DNA from: a virus
Direction: 5' to 3' (one strand)
DNA length: 64,000 bases
IMG/VR virus record: IMGVR_UViG_3300013137_000010
Location: 1 to 64,000 of that record
A program made the translations under genes and the position numbers. This document shows positions 2,968 to 61,833 of this stretch, one piece after another; within the stretch, counting starts at the first letter, position 1, and the number at the start of each line of letters is the position of its first letter. Below the pieces are notes generated by a model. The model was given only the letters and a program-made list of their open reading frames with translations. It did no database searches and had not been told where the DNA came from.

Positions 2968-3669
2968 TTATTGAGGTATTACTGAAGTTCCGATTCTATC
3001 TACTAAACTCTTTAATTCTTTAATTTGTTCATTGGTTCTAACTCCCCCAGCAAATTTAATTTTAATATCGTCTGGTAGAATTTTTCTCATAAATTTTACT
3101 TTATCAAGTTTTTCTTCAAATGAATTATCGTTAGGATATTTACCTGTGGATGTCATGACAAAATCTACACTGCTATCAATGCACATTCTACAAATTTTTT
3201 CAATTTCTTGATAGTTAAGAGCGCCAACTTCAATTATAACTTTAATAATAATTCCTTCCTTATGACAATATTCTGATAATTCTCTAATCTCTTTTTCTAA
3301 CTTTTCATTTTCTTCAGGATCTTTAATTAGTTTGTAATTAATTACAACATCAATTTCGTTTACACCATTAACAATCGCTTCATCAATTTTACTAATTTTT
3401 TTACTTACATCACTTTCACCCTTTGGAAAATCAATAAGTGCTGAAATTTTAATATCACCTTTCAAGAATGAATAAGCTGCTGCAATATATTCTGGTAGAA
3501 TACAAACAGAGTAGAAATTATTATCCTTTGCTTCTTTACAAAGTTCTTTAATTTTATCATTATCCAATCTATCTGATATTTTGGTATAATCAATTAATCT
3601 AGAATATTCTTTTTTTTCTTTGTTTTCTAGAAATTCGTATAATTTTTTGTAAATAGTCATTTTAGACAA
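2968..3669 (-). CDS. deoC: Deoxyribose-phosphate aldolase-like protein
   Basis: IDYT, SVCI, DFPKG, EIDVVIN, IKVIIE, TSTG, IKFAGGVR and RIGTS motifs. Confidence 0.85.
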   Translation of the reverse strand: MSKMTIYKKLYEFLENKEKKEYSRLIDYTKISDRLDNDKIKELCKEAKDNNFYSVCILPEYIAAAYSFLKGDIKISALIDFPKGESDVSKKISKIDEAIVNGVNEIDVVINYKLIKDPEENEKLEKEIRELSEYCHKEGIIIKVIIEVGALNYQEIEKICRMCIDSSVDFVMTSTGKYPNDNSFEEKLDKVKFMRKILPDDIKIKFAGGVRTNEQIKELKSLVDRIGTSVIPQ

Positions 3670-3802
3670 TCTTTTTTTCTTTTTTTGTATATATAAAAAA
3701 TTAAATTATAATTGTTTTCATTTTATTTGTATTATATTCTGTTAGTGTACCTATATTAGATATTTTCAACTCTTTAATTTTTTTATTAATTTCACTATAA
3801 AT

Positions 3803-4655
3803 TTATTCTAAGTCGTTTCCCAATATGATTATATTTCTTTCTCCTTCAAATATATACAGCTTATAATTTTTAAATTTTGATTTTATATTAACACCATCTA
3901 CAAATTTTGTCATACTATCAAATTTATTTTTCTTTCTGTTTAAATAAACTTTTGAATCGTTATATAAATAATTATAGATTATATTAATATCCCTCATTCT
4001 AGTCCATTGTATGTAGTAAACATTTGGTTTATTGATTGTTATTTTACAATCGTAGACATTAAGTTCCTGAGTGAATATATTTTTTATTGATTCTAAAAAT
4101 TCAAAAGACCCAGATACAAAATTTATACAATTTCTTTTTTGTGATGTGGTAATACAACCATCACCATCAAAGAATCCTCTAATGAAATGTTTTTTTAGAT
4201 TTTCATTTATTATTGGAAATTTTATAATAAATGATTTTTTATTAACACATCCATGATTAATTAAAATCATCTACTATTTTATTGGAATAGATAGAAATAT
4301 ATGAACAATGTACACCTTTATCTTCAATATTTTTTATAGTATTTGTTGATTTTATCGTATTTTTAAATAATTCTAAATGTGATAAATCTTTAGTAGAAAG
4401 TTTTAATCTTAGTTCTGATCCTTTCCTTTTTCTAACATATCCATCTGCATATAAAAAACCTAACCAATAAGCTTTTTCTTCCGTATTTATTTCTTCAAAA
4501 AATGTGTCATCCGATACATACTTTTTTTGTTTAAATTCAATATTATGTTTTTTTAATATTTCACTTAAAGTGTATCTACTGATATTATATTCATTACATA
4601 TATCATTATTTCTAACATTATATTTATATTTTTCAATTATATCTATTTCTTTCAT
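3803..4655 (-). pseudogene. LAGLIDADG homing endonuclease split by a frameshift (ORFs 4257..4655 and 3803..4270)
   Basis: YWLGFLYADG in the first ORF and FIRGFFDGDG in the second. Removing one T from gatgattttaattaat restores DDLINHG. Confidence 0.8.
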
Positions 4656-4881
4656 TTTTATTTTTTATTACTATATATAAATATTTTTTCCTCATTTTTC
4701 AACTTTTTCAGAAAAAATTAGAAAAAAATGACTTTTTCAATTTAATATATACTTATAAAAAATATTATGGAAAAGATTTATTTAATAGAAGTTATAGAAC
4801 CGAACAAAAAGTTGAGAAAATCAACTTTATGGAAACAAAGATGTAATTTTAGTATAGAAATAATAAAAATATATACGAGAG

Positions 4882-5055
4882 ATGAAAAAAGAAACAAAAA
4901 AATCTAAAGTATTTTTTAGTGTGGACGAAGAAATAAATCAAAGATTTGAAAAATACTGTGAGGACAACTTTATAAGTAAATCTAAAATTATAGAAGGACT
5001 TATGATTCTTATAGTTGAAAAATCCTCAGAAGTTAATGACTTATTAAAAAAGTAA
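4882..5055 (+). CDS. Small ribbon-helix-helix (CopG-like) DNA-binding protein
   Basis: Manual translation MKKETKKSKVFFSVDEEINQRFEKYCEDNFISKSKIIEGLM shows a beta-helix-helix pattern; lies directly upstream of the MTase. Confidence 0.6.
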   Translation: MKKETKKSKVFFSVDEEINQRFEKYCEDNFISKSKIIEGLMILIVEKSSEVNDLLKK

Positions 5056-5085
5056 TATAGTAAGTTATAAAAAATAAAATAAAAA

Positions 5086-6093
5086 ATGAAACAAAATATA
5101 AATTATATAGGTTCGAAATATTCACTTCTCGATTTTATTTATGATAAGATTAATTTATCTGTTGATAATTTATCGAATAAGATATTTTGTGATATATTTG
5201 CGGGAACTAATATAGTTGGTGCATTTTTTAAAGATAAGACCAAAAGTATAATATCTAATGATATTGAACATTATAGTTATGTTATAGCTAAAAATATATT
5301 TAATAATACAATTATAGAATATGATGATGTTGTTCAGAACTTAAACTCATTGGAGGGTGTTGAAGGCAGAATTTTTAATTATTATTCTCAGAATGGATCA
5401 TCTAAAAGATTATATTTTTCAGAAAAAAATGGTAAAAAAATAGATGCAATTCGTCTTGAAATAGAAAAATTGTTAGAATCTTCTATAATATCTGATCAGA
5501 TTTATTATGCACTTTTAACTTCTTTAATTGAAGCTGCTGATAAAGTTGCGAATACTACTTCAGTTTATGGTGCATTTTTAAAAAACATTAAGAAAACAGC
5601 ACAAACACCCATTATTTTGAAGATTTCTAATAATATAGATGTTGTCGATTCACAAATAAATTATTGTTATAACGAAGATTCTAATCAATTGATAACTAAG
5701 ATTAGTGGAGATATACTATATATAGATCCACCCTATAATCATAGACAATATGGTTCTAATTATCACATATTAAATGCTATATCTAAATATGATTTTTCAA
5801 ATGAGCCAAGTGGTATAGTTGGGCTTATGAAATATAATAAATCAAAATATTGTTATAAGAAAGAAGTAAATGAGGTATTTAGAGAACTGATTCATAATGC
5901 TGATTTTGAACATATATTTGTATCTTATAGTAGCGAAGGCATTATGCAAATGGAAGAAATAACAAAAATTTTATCATATTATGGTGAAATTAAAAGATGG
6001 GATCAAAACTATAAGACTTATAAATCAGATTCAAATCGTGATAATAAATCTTCTTCTGTTATAGAACACTTATTTTACTTGAGAAAATTTTAA
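5086..6093 (+). CDS. DNA adenine methyltransferase (D12 class)
   Basis: NYIGSK, DIFAGT, SNDIE and YIDPPYN motifs. Confidence 0.9.
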   Translation: MKQNINYIGSKYSLLDFIYDKINLSVDNLSNKIFCDIFAGTNIVGAFFKDKTKSIISNDIEHYSYVIAKNIFNNTIIEYDDVVQNLNSLEGVEGRIFNYYSQNGSSKRLYFSEKNGKKIDAIRLEIEKLLESSIISDQIYYALLTSLIEAADKVANTTSVYGAFLKNIKKTAQTPIILKISNNIDVVDSQINYCYNEDSNQLITKISGDILYIDPPYNHRQYGSNYHILNAISKYDFSNEPSGIVGLMKYNKSKYCYKKEVNEVFRELIHNADFEHIFVSYSSEGIMQMEEITKILSYYGEIKRWDQNYKTYKSDSNRDNKSSSVIEHLFYLRKF

Positions 6094-6156
6094 AAAACTT
6101 TTTCATAGTTTTTGTTTTTTATTAAAAATAGTTTTATTACATTTGTAAATAAAATT

Positions 6157-7050
6157 ATGATAATGACAAAACAAAAAAACGGAGCTGATCCACATATCAG
6201 TAGAAAAATTCTTTCAAATGAGGAAAATGCTAAAGAATATTTGATTCTTTTAGAGAAAGAAATAGGTGTTCATATACCAAAAAATAGAAATAATAAAGTA
6301 TCGCTTTCTGGTCAAAATTTGTGGGATTTCATAGAAAATACTTGGAAAAATGAAATTTCAAAAAATCTAATTCGAGATATATTCAGGCGAACGGAAAAGT
6401 ACGATAATGGTAAGAATGCATTAACAAAATTGCCTATTTTAATATCTGAATTTAAATTGCTATTTGGTAAATTACAATGGGGATTTTCTCAGGGTCAGTG
6501 TGATAATTATTTACAGAGTTTGAATAATAATAATAAAGAGTTGTCTAGTAAAGAAAAGGATGAAATCGCATCTAATGCTATAATTAAAAATAGAAGGTTG
6601 AAGGAAATAAATACTTTAAGAAATGATTATATCGAGTATTTACTTTTTGAATTGAATGATAATATTATACCGACTTTAAAGCATAATAGTGGAGTGGATT
6701 TTTTTATTGTTATGAATGATACAATAAAAAAATGGGATCAAAAGGTATCTAAGAGTGCAACCTCTCAATTTGAAAAAGATTTTTCACCAAACTGGAAGCA
6801 ATATGCTATCGAACATCCTGAAAAAGTAGCGGAATATTTATATATGTATCAAGATGAAGGTAGATTTGGTGCTGATAATAGAATTTTAGTTGTATATTTA
6901 GATGAAGAAATTAATGATAACAATATTCGTAAAACTATTTCTGGTATAAATTTGGATTCACCTTACAAAATAAATTTTACTTATAAACATTCAAAAATGG
7001 CCAATTCAACTAGTTATTGTGTCGAATGCTTTGTAATACTTCTTTATTAA
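6157..7050 (+). CDS. Hypothetical protein, candidate restriction endonuclease
   Basis: Follows the MTase and contains a PD-(D/E)xK-like GVDFF...WDQKVS motif. Start moved to ATG 6157, downstream of a TACATTTG promoter element. Confidence 0.5.
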   Translation: MIMTKQKNGADPHISRKILSNEENAKEYLILLEKEIGVHIPKNRNNKVSLSGQNLWDFIENTWKNEISKNLIRDIFRRTEKYDNGKNALTKLPILISEFKLLFGKLQWGFSQGQCDNYLQSLNNNNKELSSKEKDEIASNAIIKNRRLKEINTLRNDYIEYLLFELNDNIIPTLKHNSGVDFFIVMNDTIKKWDQKVSKSATSQFEKDFSPNWKQYAIEHPEKVAEYLYMYQDEGRFGADNRILVVYLDEEINDNNIRKTISGINLDSPYKINFTYKHSKMANSTSYCVECFVILLY

Positions 7051-7051
7051 A

Positions 7052-7368
7052 ATAGTTATAAAATTAATTGATATGTATGGTAAAGAAGGTGATTTGGTTT
7101 ATGATTCATTTATGGGTATTGGAACAACAGCTATAGGAGCAATACTAAGCAATGGTAAAATGCATTCTGATAGATCCCTACGCAAATGCTTTCAATGACG
7201 GTCCGGGCGATTAGCCGGGATTGCCCTTGCTTACCATCTGGGCCTCGGACTGTCCATCCGGTACCTATTATTATGTAATCAAAGCCGAAGTTTTATAGGA
7301 AGTGAAATAAGTATTAAGCAATGTGAATTAGCTGAACATAAAATAAAAACAAAAAATTCTAATCTATA
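7052..7368 (+). pseudogene. Truncated N4/N6 DNA methyltransferase C-terminus interrupted by a GC-rich insert
   Basis: KLIDMYGKEGDLVYDSFMGIGTTAIGAILSN ... RSFIGSEISIKQCELA is SAM-binding motif I; no start or N-terminal half; ~130-nt insert between the two parts. Confidence 0.75.
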
Positions 7369-7946
7369 ATTGTTAGTTTAGCACCAGAACGAATTAATTC
7401 CTTAATATCATCTGTCTCTAAATTTTCTTTGAATTTATCATTTTTTTTATTTTTATACTTTAATAGCCAATTATTTCCAGAGTTAGAAGTCTGATAAATA
7501 TATGTTGTATTATCATCAACTAGCTTGATGATTTTTGCAGTTAATTTTTCATAGAAGTTTTCAACAGCGCCTTTTATAGAATAGATTTCTATAGGATGCC
7601 ACTTATTATCTTTATAATATTGAAGAATTAAAAAATCAGGATTGTCTAAAATTGTTTCGTTCCTATTATAAAGAAAGAAAAATTTCATATCAATATCTTT
7701 TCTTAAAAAATTTTCAATATCTAAAGTAGATTCTAATTCACCTTTTTTAAGATTTTCTTTAAATAGTTGTTTGTTGAAATCTGCATCATCATAAAGAGTA
7801 TCAATAGTTTTATTAACATAATTATCACTTGATAAGCCAATTGAATAGAAATCCACTTTTTTATCATTGATACTATCTAAAAGTCCATCAACATCCGTGG
7901 TGATGGTTTCTTTAATATATTGTTCGTATTGTTTTAAATATTTCAT
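7359..7946 (-). CDS. Hypothetical protein with MKYLKQYE leader
   Basis: 195-aa ORF in an overlapping operon. Confidence 0.75.
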   Translation of the reverse strand: MKYLKQYEQYIKETITTDVDGLLDSINDKKVDFYSIGLSSDNYVNKTIDTLYDDADFNKQLFKENLKKGELESTLDIENFLRKDIDMKFFFLYNRNETILDNPDFLILQYYKDNKWHPIEIYSIKGAVENFYEKLTAKIIKLVDDNTTYIYQTSNSGNNWLLKYKNKKNDKFKENLETDDIKELIRSGAKLTIID

Positions 7947-58895: not shown

Positions 58896-58970
58896 CTAGG
58901 TGCGATCCATGTGGTGTGGTTACCCGGCTTGGAACCGGGGTTATTGGAGGTTCGACTCCTCTCACTTAGA
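58896..58970 (+). tRNA. trnP: tRNA-Pro(UGG), irregular D-arm
   Basis: CTAGGTG/CACTTAG acceptor, CCCGG-CTTGGAA-CCGGG, GGAGG-TTCGACT-CCTCT. Confidence 0.8.
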
Positions 58971-58975
58971 CAACT

Positions 58976-59052
58976 GGTCCTGTAATGGCGGAGTCTTCTA
59001 AACTCTATGTGCATAATGGATGAAAATGAGAGTTCGAATCTCTCCTGGATCA
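58976..59052 (+). tRNA. Non-canonical D-arm-less tRNA-Arg(UCU)-like RNA
   Basis: Acceptor GGTCCTG/CTGGATC, 7-nt linker, GGAGT-CTTCTAA-ACTCT, 21-nt segment, canonical T-arm. Confidence 0.7.
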
Positions 59053-59058
59053 CAAATT

Positions 59059-59138
59059 GGCCCTGTAATGGCGGAGTTTCCTAAACTCTATGTGCATAAT
59101 TGGAATGAAAAATGAGAGTTCGAATCTCTTCTGGGTCA
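59059..59138 (+). tRNA. Non-canonical D-arm-less tRNA-Arg(CCU)-like RNA
   Basis: Near-duplicate of the previous RNA with loop TTCCTAA. Confidence 0.7.
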
Positions 59139-59152
59139 CAAAAATAAAGATT

Positions 59153-59374
59153 ATGAAAACAAAAAAAGTAGCAGTAAAAAAAGTAGAATCAAAAGTTTTA
59201 GCAGTAGAAATATTCTGTGAAAACTTAGAGAAAAATGTGACTGTGGATATATCTAAGTTATATTTTTTGGGTAGTGAAAGTGAGTGTGAATTGTGTGGTT
59301 CACACGGTTCTGTGAATGTTTCAGTAAATTGTGAGTGTGGTAAAAATCACAGTATTGAATTGAGTAGTTGGTAA
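59153..59374 (+). CDS. Small Cys/His-rich (zinc-binding) protein inside the tRNA array
   Basis: MKTKKVAVKK...CELCGSH...CECGKNH; start set at ATG 59153. Confidence 0.65.
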   Translation: MKTKKVAVKKVESKVLAVEIFCENLEKNVTVDISKLYFLGSESECELCGSHGSVNVSVNCECGKNHSIELSSW

Positions 59375-59406
59375 GAGTAGTTGTTCTTTGACATGTTGGA
59401 AAATTA

Positions 59407-59479
59407 GGGGGCGCATGTACCAAGGCTGGCGAGAGACATTTGCAATGTTTCTGGGAGATTTCGATTATATTCGTCTCCA
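59407..59479 (+). tRNA. trnA: tRNA-Ala(UGC), atypical D-region and weak T-stem
   Basis: GGGGGCG/CGTCTCC with G3:U70, AGACA-TTTGCAA-TGTTT, discriminator A. Confidence 0.6.
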
Positions 59480-59558
59480 CTATTTTATTATAGGGTAAAT
59501 ATTATGATACTGAAATAAAAATATTTATAGATTTAAATGAATTAAAAGAAATTTATAT

Positions 59559-59632
59559 GGGTTGTGTAGTGTAACCTGCTTAGCACGAAACACTTGCAAT
59601 GTTTAAGAGGAGTTGAAATCTCACACGATCCA
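59559..59632 (+). tRNA. trnA: tRNA-Ala(UGC), 8-bp acceptor stem
   Basis: GGGTTGTG/CACGATCC with G3:U70, AAACA-CTTGCAA-TGTTT, T-stem G-GAG/CTC-A. Confidence 0.8.
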
Positions 59633-59676
59633 CATATCCGGGATGATCCTCTGTTGTATCGCAGAGCCCGGTCCAT

Positions 59677-59749
59677 GCGATTGTAGTTCAGTTGGTAGAA
59701 TACTTCCTTGGTAAGGAAGAGGTCGTGAGATCGTAACTCACCTTTCGCT
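59677..59749 (+). tRNA. trnT: tRNA-Thr(GGU)
   Basis: CTTCC-TTGGTAA-GGAAG; tandem U:U in the acceptor; T-loop ATCGTAA. Confidence 0.85.
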
Positions 59750-59757
59750 CTAAGATA

Positions 59758-59896
59758 AAGAATACATACAGCAACAAAAAAATGCATGGTTAGCAAAAAA
59801 AGTATTCTGTTCTTAAAAAATTATCTAAAGATTACATACAGCAATCTTAAAAAAGGACCAAACTTGTAATTTGAAATTCTGAAAAAATGTAATCTG
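59758..59896 (+). ncRNA. Two ATACAGCAA-containing stem-loop elements with Thr anticodon-like hairpins
   Basis: AGAATAC..GTATTCT and AGATTACA..TGTAATCT closing stems; inner loops ATGGTTA and CTTGTAA. Confidence 0.5.
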
Positions 59897-59905
59897 TGAT
59901 AAAAT

Positions 59906-59978
59906 GCGAATGTATATCAGCGGTAGATAGTCTGGTTGCCAACCAGAAGGTTCGTGGGTTCGAATCCCATCATTCGCT
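59906..59978 (+). tRNA. trnG: tRNA-Gly(GCC)
   Basis: Canonical cloverleaf, TCTGG-TTGCCAA-CCAGA. Confidence 0.92.
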
Positions 59979-59987
59979 CAGTAAATT

Positions 59988-60061
59988 GCGAAATGTAGCT
60001 TAACGGTAAAGTATCTGGCTTCCAACCAGAGGAAGGGGTTCGATTCCCACATTTCGCTCCA
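59988..60061 (+). tRNA. trnG: tRNA-Gly(UCC), 8-bp acceptor stem
   Basis: GCGAAATG/CATTTCGC, loop CTTCCAA, T-stem G-GGG/CCC-A, encoded CCA. Confidence 0.88.
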
Positions 60062-60062
60062 T

Positions 60063-60140
60063 GCGAGCATAACTCAGTAGGTTCAGAGTACTTGTCTTAC
60101 AAACAAGAAGTCGATGGTTCGACTCCATCTGTTCGCACCA
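60063..60140 (+). tRNA. trnV: tRNA-Val(UAC)
   Basis: Canonical cloverleaf, CTTGT-CTTACAA-ACAAG, encoded CCA. Confidence 0.93.
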
Positions 60141-60142
60141 AT

Positions 60143-60226
60143 GCTGATGTAGTATAGCGGCTATTACACTGGCTTTGTAACCCAGCGTCTGAGAAGACAT
60201 CGTGAGTTCGAGTCTCACCATCAGCT
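60143..60226 (+). tRNA. trnT: tRNA-Thr(UGU) with a long variable arm
   Basis: GCTGATG/CATCAGC, loop TTTGTAA, variable arm GTCT-GAGA-AGAC. Confidence 0.82.
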
Positions 60227-60236
60227 CAAAATGAAT

Positions 60237-60403
60237 GGGAAATCAACGATGAAAAGGCGGATCGTACAGGCAACGAAAGTAATCCTGATTGGATAACGAA
60301 TTGCGGATGCACCTATAGCGACCTTATTGAGGTGGTGAAAAAATGAGCAAGGGAAGCGCGTTACTAGTTACCAACGTCGCGGGTTCGAATCCCGCATTTT
60401 CCA
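60237..60403 (+). ncRNA. 167-nt tRNA-like RNA with an Ala-type acceptor and an expanded body
   Basis: GGGAAAT/ATTTTCC-A (G3:U70), perfect T-arm GCGGG-TTCGAAT-CCCGC, several internal helices, no anticodon arm. Confidence 0.7.
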
Positions 60404-60447
60404 CAAAAAAATTAAAACTTTTTTTTTCATATTATAAAAGTAAATAT

Positions 60448-60520
60448 CGAGGATATGGTGTAACCTGGTAACACGGGGCATTTGGGATGCTCAGAAGCCG
60501 TTCAAATCGGATATCTTCGA
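60448..60520 (+). tRNA. trnP: tRNA-Pro(UGG), 8-bp acceptor stem
   Basis: CGAGGATA/TATCTTCG, GGGCA-TTTGGGA-TGCTC, T-stem G-CCG/CGG-A. Confidence 0.85.
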
Positions 60521-60546
60521 CAACTCTGATAATCAGGTATTTATAA

Positions 60547-60633
60547 GCCGAATTCCCATAGTGGTTGATTGGGCGTGACTTGTAATCACGAGGGTTTTTA
60601 TACCCCGCACTGGTTCGAATCCAGTATTCGGCT
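60547..60633 (+). tRNA. trnT: tRNA-Thr(UGU) with a long variable arm
   Basis: GCCGAAT/ATTCGGC, CGTGA-CTTGTAA-TCACG, variable arm GGGT-TTTTAT-ACCC. Confidence 0.85.
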
Positions 60634-60652
60634 CTCATACCTAATAAAAAAT

Positions 60653-60684
60653 AAAAATTCATTTCTCTCTCGAAATGAATTTTT
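60653..60684 (+). terminator. Intrinsic terminator
   Basis: aaaaattcatttc-tctctc-gaaatgaattttt. Confidence 0.7.
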
Positions 60685-60719
60685 GACTTAAAAATATTTA
60701 TATATACAAATAAAAAAGT

Positions 60720-61391
60720 ATGAAGTGGTCTGAAGAAGAAGAAAATGATTTAATTTCTTTATTAGAAAATGGATTTACATATTTGGATATATCTATTAAA
60801 TTAAATCGAACTAAAAAAAGTGTTAAAGAAAAAGCTAATAAGTGTGGACTTAATTTTAAGTCTTTCCTTAAAAAGGAGGCAAATAAATGCTTAGAGTGTA
60901 ATAAAGATATTGAAAAAAATAAAAAATTCTGTTCATCATCATGTTCTGCAAAACATAACAATAAAAAAAGAATTCACAAAGAATCAAATTGTATAGTTTG
61001 TGGAAACAAAACCAAAAAGTTTGGATACAAATTTTGTTCTAATAAATGTCAAATAGAACATCAATATGCTGTATATATTCAGAAGTGGAAAAATGATGAA
61101 GTTGATGGTGTGTCTGGTGAATATGGAACATCAAGATATATAAAAAAATATTTATTTGAAAAGTTTAATGGAAAATGTACGAGATGTGGATGGGGTGAAA
61201 AAAATCAATATACAGGTAATATTCCATTAGAGATAGAGCATAAAGATGGCAATAGTAAAAATAATAAAGAAGAAAATTTAACTCTATTATGTCCTAATTG
61301 TCATTCTTTAACAGAAACATATAAGGGTGCAAATAGAGGAAATGGTAGATATAATAGGCGAGAAAGATATAAAGATAAAAAATCATACTAA
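60720..61391 (+). CDS. HNH homing endonuclease inside the tRNA array
   Basis: Zinc motifs, CTRCGW and LEIEHKDGNSKNNKEENLTLLCPNCHS. Confidence 0.9.
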   Translation: MKWSEEEENDLISLLENGFTYLDISIKLNRTKKSVKEKANKCGLNFKSFLKKEANKCLECNKDIEKNKKFCSSSCSAKHNNKKRIHKESNCIVCGNKTKKFGYKFCSNKCQIEHQYAVYIQKWKNDEVDGVSGEYGTSRYIKKYLFEKFNGKCTRCGWGEKNQYTGNIPLEIEHKDGNSKNNKEENLTLLCPNCHSLTETYKGANRGNGRYNRRERYKDKKSY

Positions 61392-61672
61392 GGTCCCGTA
61401 GCTCAGCTGGATAGAGCAACAGCCTTCAAAAGGAGCTTCATAGATGAAAATGTGTGTCGAATGGTGTAAATTCAAAGAATGCTTAACAGGTAATGCTGAT
61501 GTTAACTTTGAGCGAAGTTCTTGTATAAGAAAACGTGCAGAGACTATAATCACCCACCTAAGATAGAAATATTAAGGTGAAGGCATAGTCCAGACCACAA
61601 ACAATAATTGGCAGTGAAAACTGTAGTGGTAGGCTAAGCTGTGGGTCATAGGTTTGAATCCTATCGGGATCA
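61392..61672 (+). tRNA. trnR: tRNA-Arg(UCU) interrupted by a group I intron (exons 61392-61426 and 61634-61672)
   Basis: The spliced product GGTCCCG..ACAGC-CTT|CTAA-GCTGT..CGGGATC-A is a normal cloverleaf with A20. Confidence 0.88.
61427..61633 (+). mobile_element. 207-nt group I intron (IC3-like), no ORF
   Basis: P AAATTCAAAGAA, Q AACTTTGAGC, R GTGCAGAGACTA, S AAGGCATAGTCC; U:G pair in P1 at the 5' splice site; terminal G. Confidence 0.88.
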
Positions 61673-61698
61673 CATATATTTTATATACATTTTATAAT

Positions 61699-61771
61699 GC
61701 CTTCTTAACTCAATTGGTAGAGTAGTTCTTTCGTAAAGAACAAGTTATCGGTTCGAATCCGATAGTTGGCT
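61699..61771 (+). tRNA. trnT: tRNA-Thr(CGU)
   Basis: GTTCT-TTCGTAA-AGAAC; tandem U:U in the acceptor. Confidence 0.88.
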
Positions 61772-61833
61772 CTTAAAATTCCTTAATTTTTTTATTTCAG
61801 AGTTTTTCCTTATCTTTGTAGTATTAAAACAAT

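What the first reader, a model, noticed from the sequence alone, without database searches (positions are those of the whole stretch)
60237..60403. 167-nt RNA with an alanine-type acceptor end and a large structured body (mini-tmRNA-like)
Seen: GGGAAAT/ATTTTCC-A with G3:U70 and A73, plus a perfect T-arm. The interior has hairpins ACGAT/ATCGT and CAGG/CCTG and a long nested arm (TTGG/CCAA, TAACG/CGTTA, TTGC/GCAA, CACC/GGTG, ACCT/AGGT), with no 7-nt anticodon loop. Established: G3:U70 is sufficient for AlaRS, and Ala-charged tRNA-like RNAs without an anticodon include tmRNA (usually over 300 nt). Inference: a compact tmRNA-like or tail-adding RNA, or a new tRNA-mimic class. A short frame GCA CCT ATA...TGG TGA (APIATLLRW*) is present, but a tag role for it is speculative.
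Basis: partly seen in the sequence, partly recalled or inferred. Interest (0 to 1): 0.75.

Follow-up and report, generated by a model that had tools for sequence, protein, structure and literature searches.

The report
tRNA-shaped non-decoding phage RNA gene
A giant lake-water phage carries, among its tRNA genes, a conserved 167-base RNA that has the ends and elbow of an alanine tRNA but no anticodon and a large extra folded domain; it belongs to an uncatalogued RNA family shared with other huge phages and Deinococcus bacteria, is not a tmRNA, and its job is still unknown.

Summary
Window 60237-60403 (+) is a real RNA gene in a phage tRNA array. ARAGORN and Rfam do not call it.

I found 35 copies with the same nearly invariant core. 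They come from huge-phage contigs and from 13 of 151 sampled Deinococcota genomes.

In 30 distinct full-length sequences:
- The acceptor stem is canonical in 209 of 210 cells, and all 7 pairs show two-sided changes.
- The T stem is canonical in 149 of 150 cells.
- G3:U70 is kept in 25 of 30 and A73 in 29 of 30.

It is not a tmRNA. No tag frame is conserved, it scores 14-21 bits against a cut-off of 47, and true tmRNAs coexist with it, often right beside it. It is not an intron-bearing tRNA.

My best reading is a processed, probably alanine-charged tRNA mimic whose giant variable-arm domain is a binding handle. It may act in RNA repair or quality control. One Deinococcota copy heads a tRNA/YrlA-rsr-rtcB operon, but most copies stand alone, so function is inferred.

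Earlier agents of this scan found the same family on other DNA.

The parts
60237..60403 (+). whole tRNA-shaped RNA gene (167 nt, ending at discriminator A; CCA not encoded)
   Evidence: Sequence. Homologues with the same ends. Not called by ARAGORN or Rfam.
60237..60243 (+). acceptor stem, 5' strand (GGGAAAU; G3 of the G3:U70 pair at 60239)
   Evidence: family acceptor is canonical in 209 of 210 cells, with two-sided changes at 7 of 7 pairs. G3:U70 in 25 of 30.
60246..60265 (+). D-arm analogue (ACGAU - GAAAAGGCGG - AUCGU; the loop keeps GG)
   Evidence: Searches show compensatory ACGAU/AUCGU versus ACAGA/UCUGU; 4 of 4 pairs have two-sided change, but the stems were located by a best-hairpin search, which favours pairing.
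60267..60287 (+). hairpin in the anticodon-arm position (CAGG - 13-nt loop CAACGAAAGUAAU - CCUG); not an anticodon loop
   Evidence: loop length is 7-20 nt across the family, always with AAC(G/A). The stem covaries (same best-hairpin caveat).
60289..60374 (+). giant variable-arm domain, closed by UUGG-A-UAAC / GUUA-CCAA
   Evidence: the inner pair is A-U in 3 sequences and G-C in 5 of the 8 group-A sequences. The outer helix also changes compensatorily (UUGG/CCAA versus UUGAA/UUCAG).
60292..60371 (+). nearly invariant family core (UUGC-GGAUGC-ACC-UAUAGCG-hairpin-GGU-A-rich-AGCAA-GGGAAGCGCGUU)
   Evidence: Alignment A1. Model R1 scores 84.3 bits here; 99.2% of cells paired, but only 1 of 8 modelled pairs shows two-sided change.
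60379..60395 (+). T arm (GCGGG-UUCGAAU-CCCGC)
   Evidence: canonical in 149 of 150 cells, with two-sided change at 3 of 5 pairs.
60396..60403 (+). acceptor stem 3' strand (AUUUUCC; U70 at 60399) and discriminator A73 (60403)
   Evidence: A73 in 29 of 30.
60143..60227 (+). upstream neighbour tRNA-Thr(UGU), 9 nt before the RNA (same strand, same array)
60448..60521 (+). downstream neighbour tRNA-Pro(UGG), 44 nt after the RNA

Best explanation
The element is a gene for a stable, non-decoding, tRNA-shaped RNA.

Shown:
- It has a complete tRNA body: a 7-bp acceptor, a D arm with GG, a T arm with UUCGAAU, and A73.
- The anticodon arm is replaced by a short hairpin with an AACG-containing loop.
- An 86-nt, almost invariant domain sits where a variable arm would be.
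- It belongs to one family found in huge phages and in Deinococcota chromosomes.

Inferred:
- It is transcribed with the phage tRNA array, cut out by the tRNA-processing enzymes (RNase P at the 5' end, 3' trimming) and given CCA.
- In most members it is charged by AlaRS through G3:U70 and A73.
- It cannot read codons.
- The tRNA part lets it engage tRNA-binding enzymes. The conserved domain acts as a handle for a partner protein or RNA.

The most likely field of action is tRNA/RNA damage control. It would be an adaptor or decoy of the kind proposed for YrlA Y RNAs with Ro60 and RtcB, used by the phage while host and phage fight over tRNAs.
For: Family and structure:
- There are 35 core matches of 33-87 bits, one per source.
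- In 30 distinct full-length sequences the acceptor is canonical in 209 of 210 cells with 7 of 7 pairs covarying, and the T stem in 149 of 150.
- The variable-arm closing helix covaries.

Alanine identity: G3:U70 persists in 25 of 30 sequences while pairs 4-7 change freely. A73 is present in 29 of 30.

Processing context:
- The RNA lies 9 nt after one tRNA and 44 nt before the next, on the same strand.
- In three contigs a relative starts 5-6 nt after a tmRNA.
- Many relatives encode CCA.

The family has a cellular life of its own. It is in 13 of 151 sampled Deinococcota genomes, one copy each.

Hints of an RNA-repair link:
- In Deinococcota genome G061 a member is the first gene of a run of tRNAs and YrlA-like RNAs followed by rsr (TROVE + vWA_Ro60) and rtcB.
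- Contig L004 has a 'Swiss Army Knife RNA repair' HAD gene 1 kb upstream on the same strand.
- This phage record has a DUF2828/DUF7788 (vWA-like) gene 5.7 kb downstream on the same strand.
- The two other group-A phage records checked have DUF2828 next to RtcB.
- 9 of 13 Deinococcota carriers have a TROVE gene, against 43 of 138 non-carriers. This comparison is confounded by relatedness.
Against: - There are no expression, processing or charging data of any kind.
- Only 1 of 13 Deinococcota copies is in an rsr-rtcB operon. A second lies 5.7 kb from a TROVE fragment, but with unrelated metabolic genes between them.
- The other neighbourhoods I annotated vary: purF, isocitrate lyase, trehalose-phosphate synthase, DUF4062.
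- 4 of 13 carriers have no TROVE match.
- A sister operon (G151) lacks the RNA.
- 0 of 7 phage loci with a DUF2828 relative hold the RNA within 10 kb. This includes two close relatives with the same tRNA array order.
- The complete 306-kb phage G003 carries the RNA but has no TROVE, DUF2828 or RtcB match.
- The YrlA Ro-binding motif, as quoted in PMC4201824, is not present in its defined form.
- 5 of 30 members lack G3:U70.
- The fold of the core rests on conservation, not covariation.
Confidence: 0.45

Rival explanations
1. A trans-translation-related RNA. Once charged with alanine it would enter stalled ribosomes, or bind SmpB/EF-Tu. It would act either as a tag-less rescue factor or as a competitor that modulates the tmRNA system, like the coding-sequence-less tmRNA form of a mycobacteriophage reported to inhibit host tmRNA.
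For: - G3:U70 and A73 are conserved.
- The RNA lies directly 3' of a bona fide tmRNA in L015, L022 and L027 (5-6 nt apart). It is 121-286 nt from one in L019 and L021, and about 950 nt from the tmRNA of the complete phage G003.
- The only Rfam model that aligns end to end is tmRNA, though weakly (19.6 bits in Deinococcus).
- A precedent for a CDS-less phage tmRNA form is quoted in PMC11915505 (passage).
Against: - Scores of 14-21 bits fall far below the cut-off of 47.
- The RNA has a true D stem and a hairpin in the anticodon-arm position, which the tmRNA tRNA-like domain lacks.
- No reading frame is conserved.
- Five members lost G3:U70.
- In Deinococcus the gene is nowhere near ssrA.
- Closeness to tmRNA may only reflect that both sit in tRNA arrays.
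- I did not look for SmpB genes.
Confidence: 0.2
2. A dedicated, ribosome-evading alanyl carrier for an aminoacyl-tRNA-dependent transferase (cell-wall, lipid or peptide modification). The big domain would keep it off EF-Tu and the ribosome, or dock the transferase.
For: The AlaRS identity pair is kept in 25 of 30 sequences although the RNA cannot decode. Non-proteinogenic tRNAs of this kind are established knowledge (recalled, for example staphylococcal tRNA-Gly used in cell-wall synthesis).
Against: No Fem/MprF-type gene turned up in any neighbourhood I annotated. An 80-nt nearly invariant domain is more than such a role needs. Five members lost G3:U70.
Confidence: 0.08
3. An ordinary tRNA gene interrupted by an intron or a mobile insertion. 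It would be spliced to a normal tRNA.
For: The ends are those of a tRNA. Group I introns do occur in these arrays: there is one right beside a relative in L017.
Against: - There is no group I or other intron match in the element.
- ARAGORN in intron mode finds nothing in the window copy. In 4 of 20 relatives it gives mutually inconsistent calls (Ala, Ser, Arg, Leu, with different intron sites).
- The 'insert' is the most conserved part, and it keeps its place in cellular and phage copies.
- No 7-nt anticodon loop can be assembled consistently.
Confidence: 0.02

Closest known systems
tmRNA (SsrA; Rfam RF00023)
   Same: Alanine-type acceptor end (G3:U70, A73), a T arm, no anticodon, a large body between the two halves of the tRNA-like part, and a location among phage tRNA genes.
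   Different: The element has a real D stem and a hairpin in the anticodon-arm position. It has no conserved tag frame. It scores 14-21 bits against a cut-off of 47. It coexists with true tmRNAs in the same genomes.
YrlA / bacterial Y RNAs bound by Ro60 (Rfam RF02553; Chen et al. 2014, PMC4201824, passages seen)
   Same: A non-decoding tRNA mimic with D and T arms. One family member shares an operon with YrlA-like RNAs, rsr and rtcB.
   Different: In YrlA the RNA termini form the Ro-binding stem and the tRNA-like part is internal. Here the termini form a 7-bp acceptor stem and the extra domain is internal. The element scores 13.9 bits against a cut-off of 69. The quoted motif GNCGAAN0-1G is absent in that form. 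Most copies are not near a Ro60 gene.
b7a-tRNA (band-7-associated tRNA predicted by Burroughs and Aravind 2016; known to me only through the passage in preprint 10.1101/312249, and an earlier scan note)
   Same: A predicted, untested tRNA-like RNA tied to RtcB RNA-repair operons.
   Different: That passage describes it as strongly resembling an authentic tRNA and lying beside a Band-7 gene. Here Band-7 genes are 16 kb or more away, or absent. The original paper is not held, so I could not compare sequences. Identity with this family is neither shown nor excluded.
Coding-sequence-less tmRNA form of mycobacteriophage DS6A (as quoted in PMC11915505, passage seen)
   Same: A phage-encoded RNA with an alanine-type tRNA-like end and no usable tag frame.
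   Different: That form is described as a very short tmRNA relative. This RNA is 160-250 nt, carries its own conserved domain, and is not recognisably tmRNA-derived.
Class II tRNAs (Leu, Ser, Tyr, Sec) with long variable arms (established knowledge, recalled)
   Same: The extra helix emerges between the anticodon arm and the T arm.
   Different: Their arms are about 10-25 nt and they keep a decoding anticodon loop. Here the arm is 86 nt (more in relatives) and the anticodon loop is gone.

Membership tests
tmRNA (RF00023) | Score at or above the curated Rfam threshold (47 bits) | tested here: not met
   14.3 bits for a truncated alignment, 21.1 bits, and 19.6 bits for the Deinococcus relative. 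ARAGORN makes no tmRNA call.
tmRNA (RF00023) | Alanine-type acceptor (G3:U70, A73) and T arm | tested here: met
   Across the family, 25 of 30 and 29 of 30.
tmRNA (RF00023) | Conserved tag reading frame with resume codon and in-frame stop | tested here: not met
   The frame from GCA CCU gives 24 distinct peptides in 30 sequences, 9 without a stop. The second frame (AREARY*) is closed only in the 8 closest relatives, and 16 of the other 22 have no stop.
tmRNA (RF00023) | tRNA-like domain without a D stem; helix 2 takes the place of the anticodon arm | tested here: not met
   A covarying 4-5-bp D stem and a separate hairpin follow it.
tmRNA (RF00023) | It is the genome's tmRNA (normally one per genome) | tested here: not met
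   The phage's own record has a separate tmRNA at 81134-81507 (-), 59.2 bits. The Deinococcus genome has one at 163.7 bits. Neighbouring tmRNAs score 117-155 bits in five contigs.
tRNA (RF00005), with or without intron | tRNA model match, 7-nt anticodon loop, consistent anticodon after removing an intron | tested here: not met
   No tRNA match over the element. ARAGORN intron mode gives 0 genes in the window copy and inconsistent calls in 4 of 20 relatives. No intron family match.
YrlA / Y RNA (RF02553) | Score at or above the Rfam threshold (69 bits) | tested here: not met
   13.9 bits, covering the T-arm region only.
YrlA / Y RNA (RF02553) | Terminal stem carrying the Ro-binding motif GNCGAAN0-1G (as quoted in PMC4201824) | tested here: not met
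   The termini form an acceptor stem. The nearest strings are AACGAAAG (loop) and AACGAAUUG (arm) in the window copy. 5 of the 8 closest relatives have GACGAAUUG, with two bases rather than 0-1 before the G.
YrlA / Y RNA (RF02553) | Lies within about 4 kb of a Ro60 (TROVE) gene on the same strand | tested here: not met
   No TROVE match in the phage's own 83-kb record (a fragment), the 735-kb phage, G002 or the complete G003. The feature is met in 1 of 13 Deinococcota carriers (G061).
YrlA / Y RNA (RF02553) | tRNA-like D and T arms | tested here: met
b7a-tRNA (Burroughs and Aravind 2016) | Encoded beside a Band-7 gene and RtcB | tested here: not met
   No Band-7 match in the phage's own record or G002. 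In G003 and the 735-kb phage, Band-7 lies 16 kb and 90 kb from the RNA. RtcB is 24 kb or more away, or absent.
b7a-tRNA (Burroughs and Aravind 2016) | Sequence/structure as defined by its authors | not testable with these tools
   The paper is not held. I saw only a citing passage.

The most novel reading that the evidence does not exclude
This is a new class of chargeable but non-decoding tRNA-like RNA, used by both huge phages and Deinococcus. Alanine on its 3' end would be functional: either delivered to a stalled ribosome or to a non-ribosomal acceptor, or read as a charge sensor. The invariant 80-nt domain would replace the anticodon arm as the specificity element. That would make it a third kind of aminoacylated non-tRNA beside tmRNA and the viral tRNA-like ends.
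Probability: 0.15. Interest if true: 0.85.

Novelty: new variant of a known kind. Interest (0 to 1): 0.6.

Why it matters
The family is absent from Rfam and is missed by tRNA and tmRNA finders. It is nevertheless conserved almost base for base between lake-water and groundwater megaphages and Deinococcus chromosomes, and it keeps the one base pair that AlaRS needs.

If it is charged, it is a rare case of an aminoacylated RNA that cannot decode. If it is a handle-bearing tRNA mimic, it extends the Y RNA/YrlA idea to a new architecture, and it may explain part of what the large tRNA arrays of huge phages are for.

Deinococcus carriers make it testable in culture.

Tried and rejected
- **Rfam at permissive thresholds.** Nothing beyond weak tmRNA/YrlA hits driven by the T arm.
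- **Single-sequence folding.** Not better than shuffles, so uninformative.
- **Ro60 linkage.** TROVE is absent from all four phage records tested. Model R1 with filters off found nothing credible in 12 loci around TROVE, RtcB or Band-7 genes (best 12.4 bits).
- **DUF2828 linkage.** 0 of 7 phage loci hold the RNA within 10 kb. tblastn found no DUF2828, Rsr or RtcB in the held flanks of 28 loci.
- **DUF2828 as a Ro60 relative.** A sequence search of the DUF2828 protein against solved structures gave no Ro60 match.
- **Other phyla.** 1 weak hit in each of two samples of 151 genomes (the phyla of the Syntrophomonas and the Legionella MAGs). On inspection both were coding sequence without tRNA-like ends. 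The family was not found in those searched, which is not the same as absent.
- **Named phages and plasmids.** blastn of group B, group C and Deinococcus representatives found nothing at E <= 1e-6.
- **AACG loop / CGUU bulge pseudoknot.** No compensating change where the bulge reads GAGUU (5 of 8 group-A sequences), so it is unsupported.
- **Sequencing runs.** No RNA holder listed. Read laying was not used. DNA holders are lake-water metagenome runs.
- **Promoter/terminator scan.** Not above shuffles for promoters. The terminator-like hits are T arms read on the other strand.
- **3:70 pairs of the window's other tRNAs.** Uninformative, because three tRNAs have shifted ends in the coordinates I used.
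- **Literature.** I searched and saw listings only. I read passages. None describes this family. The one paper that might (Burroughs and Aravind 2016) is not held. I did not open any supplementary files, and those of Chen et al. 2014 may bear on membership. The origin of LR756501 in a huge-phage survey is my recollection and was not checked.

**Rows dropped**
- L016, L020, L030, L032 and L033 are pattern-only false matches, judged by eye.
- L073 is a false positive.
- Duplicates L005, L011, L018, L024 and L028 were removed.
- Partial copies L023, L026 and L027, plus L070 and L072 (no 7/7 acceptor found by my script), were left out.
- L065 was left out of the D-arm and hairpin counts.

Full report
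**What is there.**
- Window 60237-60403 (+) lies inside a same-strand array of ten tRNA genes at 58896-61772. The host is a phage: it has a baseplate spike with a peptidase, ribonucleotide reductase and a RecA-like gene, and an HNH gene inside the array.
- The record is an 83-kb IMG/VR fragment that CheckV rates 12% complete.
- DNA of this stretch is held by lake-water metagenome runs. Beyond two possible sources, three further runs from three studies of the same year hold it, and these may be one campaign.
- The 167 nt read as follows: acceptor GGGAAAU/AUUUUCC with G3:U70 and discriminator A; CA; a D-arm-like hairpin ACGAU-GAAAAGGCGG-AUCGU; A; a hairpin CAGG-13 nt-CCUG; A; an 86-nt arm; CGUC; the T arm GCGGG-UUCGAAU-CCCGC.
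- ARAGORN and Rfam (gathering thresholds) call the nine or ten neighbouring tRNAs but not this element.
- At permissive thresholds the best same-strand hits are tmRNA at 14.3 bits (cut-off 47) and YrlA at 13.9 bits (cut-off 69). Both are carried by the T arm.
- Folding energy alone does not separate the sequence from shuffles (z -0.85).

**It is a family.**
- blastn against phage records found the element only in the two copies of a 735-kb uncultured phage, at 83% identity.
- Exact and degenerate core patterns then found:
  - 3 and later 5 IMG/VR contigs;
  - 22 metagenome contigs, of which 20 are relatives and 2 are pattern-only matches;
  - 4 genome contigs, of which 1 is a relative, a Deinococcus chromosome.
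- The copies fall into four groups:
  - group A, 161-167 nt, which includes the window copy;
  - group B, 217-221 nt;
  - group C, 217-247 nt;
  - a Deinococcus group, 202-209 nt.
- All share the core UUGC-GGAUGC-ACY-UAUAGCG-hairpin-(G)GGU-A-rich-AGCAA-RGGAAGCGNGUU (alignment A1).
- A covariance model of that core (R1) finds exactly one copy in each of five records: this phage record, the 735-kb phage, two other viral records and the Deinococcus genome.
- R1 also finds 14 hits in 151 sampled Deinococcota genomes. Of these, 12 are intact, 1 is decayed and 1 is false.
- R1 finds no true copy in two samples of 151 genomes from two other phyla.
- In all, 35 sources gave 35 matches of 33-87 bits.

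**Structure.**
- I analysed 30 distinct full-length sequences.
  - The acceptor stem is canonical in 209 of 210 cells, with two-sided changes at all 7 pairs.
  - The T stem is canonical in 149 of 150 cells, with two-sided changes at 3 of 5 pairs.
  - A D stem with a GG loop and a following hairpin can be placed in every sequence tested and they covary. I located them by a best-hairpin search, which favours pairing.
  - The loop in the anticodon position is 7-20 nt and always contains AAC(G/A), so there is no anticodon loop.
- The big arm is closed by a helix that covaries within group A: the inner pair is A-U in 3 sequences and G-C in 5.
- The core is so conserved that only 1 of its 8 modelled pairs shows a two-sided change. 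99.2% of cells are paired, against 25-55% in slid controls.
- Larger relatives add hairpins capped by GUAA/GCAA-type loops.

**Not a tmRNA and not an interrupted tRNA.**
It then diverges through indels in a hairpin loop: 24 different peptides in 30 sequences, 9 with no stop.
- A second frame is closed only in group A.
- True tmRNAs coexist with the element:
  - 117-155 bits in five group-B contigs, three of them ending 5-6 nt before the element;
  - 189.9 bits about 950 nt from the element in the complete 306-kb phage;
  - 59.2 bits elsewhere in this phage record;
  - 163.7 bits elsewhere in the Deinococcus genome.
- ARAGORN in intron mode finds nothing in the window copy. It gives inconsistent calls in 4 of 20 relatives.

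**Alanine identity.**
- G3:U70 is kept in 25 of 30 sequences across three divergent groups, while the neighbouring acceptor pairs change by Watson-Crick covariation. A73 is present in 29 of 30.
- That a G:U wobble at 3:70 suffices for AlaRS is established knowledge. Its persistence here argues for selection.
- Five members have A-U, U-A or G-C instead, so charging with alanine is not a family-wide requirement. Charging itself is untested.

**Context and function.**
- *Deinococcota.* The gene mostly stands alone, next to purF, isocitrate lyase, trehalose-phosphate synthase or DUF4062.
  - The exception is genome G061. There a divergent member (248 nt, no G3:U70) is followed on the same strand by tRNAs and YrlA-like RNAs, then rsr (TROVE + vWA_Ro60) and rtcB.
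  - A similar operon in G151 lacks the RNA.
  - 9 of 13 carriers have a TROVE gene, against 43 of 138 non-carriers. Relatedness confounds this comparison.
- *Phages.*
  - No TROVE gene in the four records tested.
  - RtcB is present in two, 24 kb or more from the RNA.
  - A DUF2828/DUF7788 (vWA-like) gene is present in the three group-A records. In this phage record it lies 5.7 kb downstream on the same strand, just outside the window.
  - However, 0 of 7 phage loci with a DUF2828 relative hold the RNA within 10 kb. Two close relatives have the same array order but lack the RNA.
  - The complete phage G003 has the RNA but none of TROVE, DUF2828 or RtcB.
  - Contig L004 has an RNA-repair-type HAD gene 1 kb upstream and an R2K ATP-grasp gene downstream.
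- I read these as hints, not proof, of a link to RNA repair or quality control.

**Comparison with known systems.**
- *YrlA Y RNAs* mimic tRNA and sit beside Ro60 and RtcB (PMC4201824; preprint 10.1101/312249; passages). Their termini, however, form the Ro-binding stem, and their quoted motif GNCGAAN0-1G is not present here in that form.
- *A phage Ro60* binds Y-like RNAs with a CGAA bulge (PMC12135203, passage). The window copy has CGAA at the junction of the arm's inner helix and its internal loop, but groups B-D do not keep it there.
- *The b7a-tRNA* predicted in 2016 may be related. I could not read that paper.
- *A coding-sequence-less phage tmRNA form* that inhibits host tmRNA is on record (PMC11915505, passage). 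It is the model for my main rival reading.

**Earlier work of this scan.**
- Earlier agents met the same family on other DNA. They reached similar verdicts: tRNA-shaped, not tmRNA, uncatalogued, sometimes in rsr-rtcB operons.
- I re-derived the family independently. I confirmed one operon case myself.
- I found that the link is facultative.

**Verdict.** This is a real, conserved, uncatalogued tRNA mimic with a probable alanine end and an unexplained invariant domain. The function is open.

Noticed in passing
L090 6119-7525 (+) = own record G000:C1 66118-67524, outside the window: A 468-aa DUF2828 + DUF7788 (vWA-like) gene lies 5.7 kb downstream of the element on the same strand. Just upstream (L090 about 6054-6100) is a hairpin AGATTAC/GTAATCT whose loop begins TA-ACAGCAA. 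That is the 'handle' motif an earlier scan note tied to such genes.
   Followed up: partly
own record G000:C1 81134-81507 (-), outside the window: This phage record carries its own tmRNA gene (Rfam 59.2 bits, above the cut-off), 21 kb from the element on the other strand.
   Followed up: no
window 60143-60227 and 60547-60634: Two tRNA-Thr(UGU) genes of 85 and 88 nt carry a long extra arm (a 15-nt insertion in the Rfam alignment), which is unusual for tRNA-Thr. Long Thr(UGU) genes recur in related arrays (L002, L006, L093).
   Followed up: no
window 60720-61391 (+): An HNH endonuclease gene sits inside the tRNA array. A GIY-YIG/NUMOD3 gene lies at L090 4721-5431 (-), and a TnpB-like gene (OrfB_IS605 + Cas12f1-like TNB) at L090 13997-14863 (-).
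   Followed up: no
L015 771-1381 (-), L022 1656-2246 (+), L027 1035-1836 (+): In group-B phage contigs the family member starts 5-6 nt after a full tmRNA (tag ADDY(Y/N)TDLALAA). This suggests one precursor transcript.
   Followed up: partly
L091 about 3230-7752 (+) (Deinococcota genome G061): The operon order is: family member, tRNA, YrlA-like RNA, two tRNAs, further YrlA-like modules carrying GCCGAAG-type motifs, rsr (TROVE + vWA_Ro60), rtcB. The sister locus L108 (G151) has the YrlA-like RNAs, tRNAs and rsr but no family member.
   Followed up: partly
L017 527-714 (-): A group I intron (Rfam 59.7 bits) lies about 50 nt 3' of a family member, apparently inside the next tRNA gene.
   Followed up: no
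L065 (Deinococcota genome G148) and L072 (G110): One Deinococcota copy carries an insertion of about 70 nt in its D loop. Another copy is decayed, with a broken T arm and core.
   Followed up: no
L008 4500-4589 (-), L021 95-170 (+): Arrays that hold relatives also hold suppressor-type tRNAs (anticodons UUA and CUA by ARAGORN). This hints at stop-codon recoding in those phages.
   Followed up: no
L004 1728-2312 (+) and 5392-6153 (+): A HAD domain of the 'Swiss Army Knife RNA repair' type lies 1 kb upstream of a group-A family member, and an R2K-clade ATP-grasp gene lies 1.9 kb downstream.
   Followed up: no
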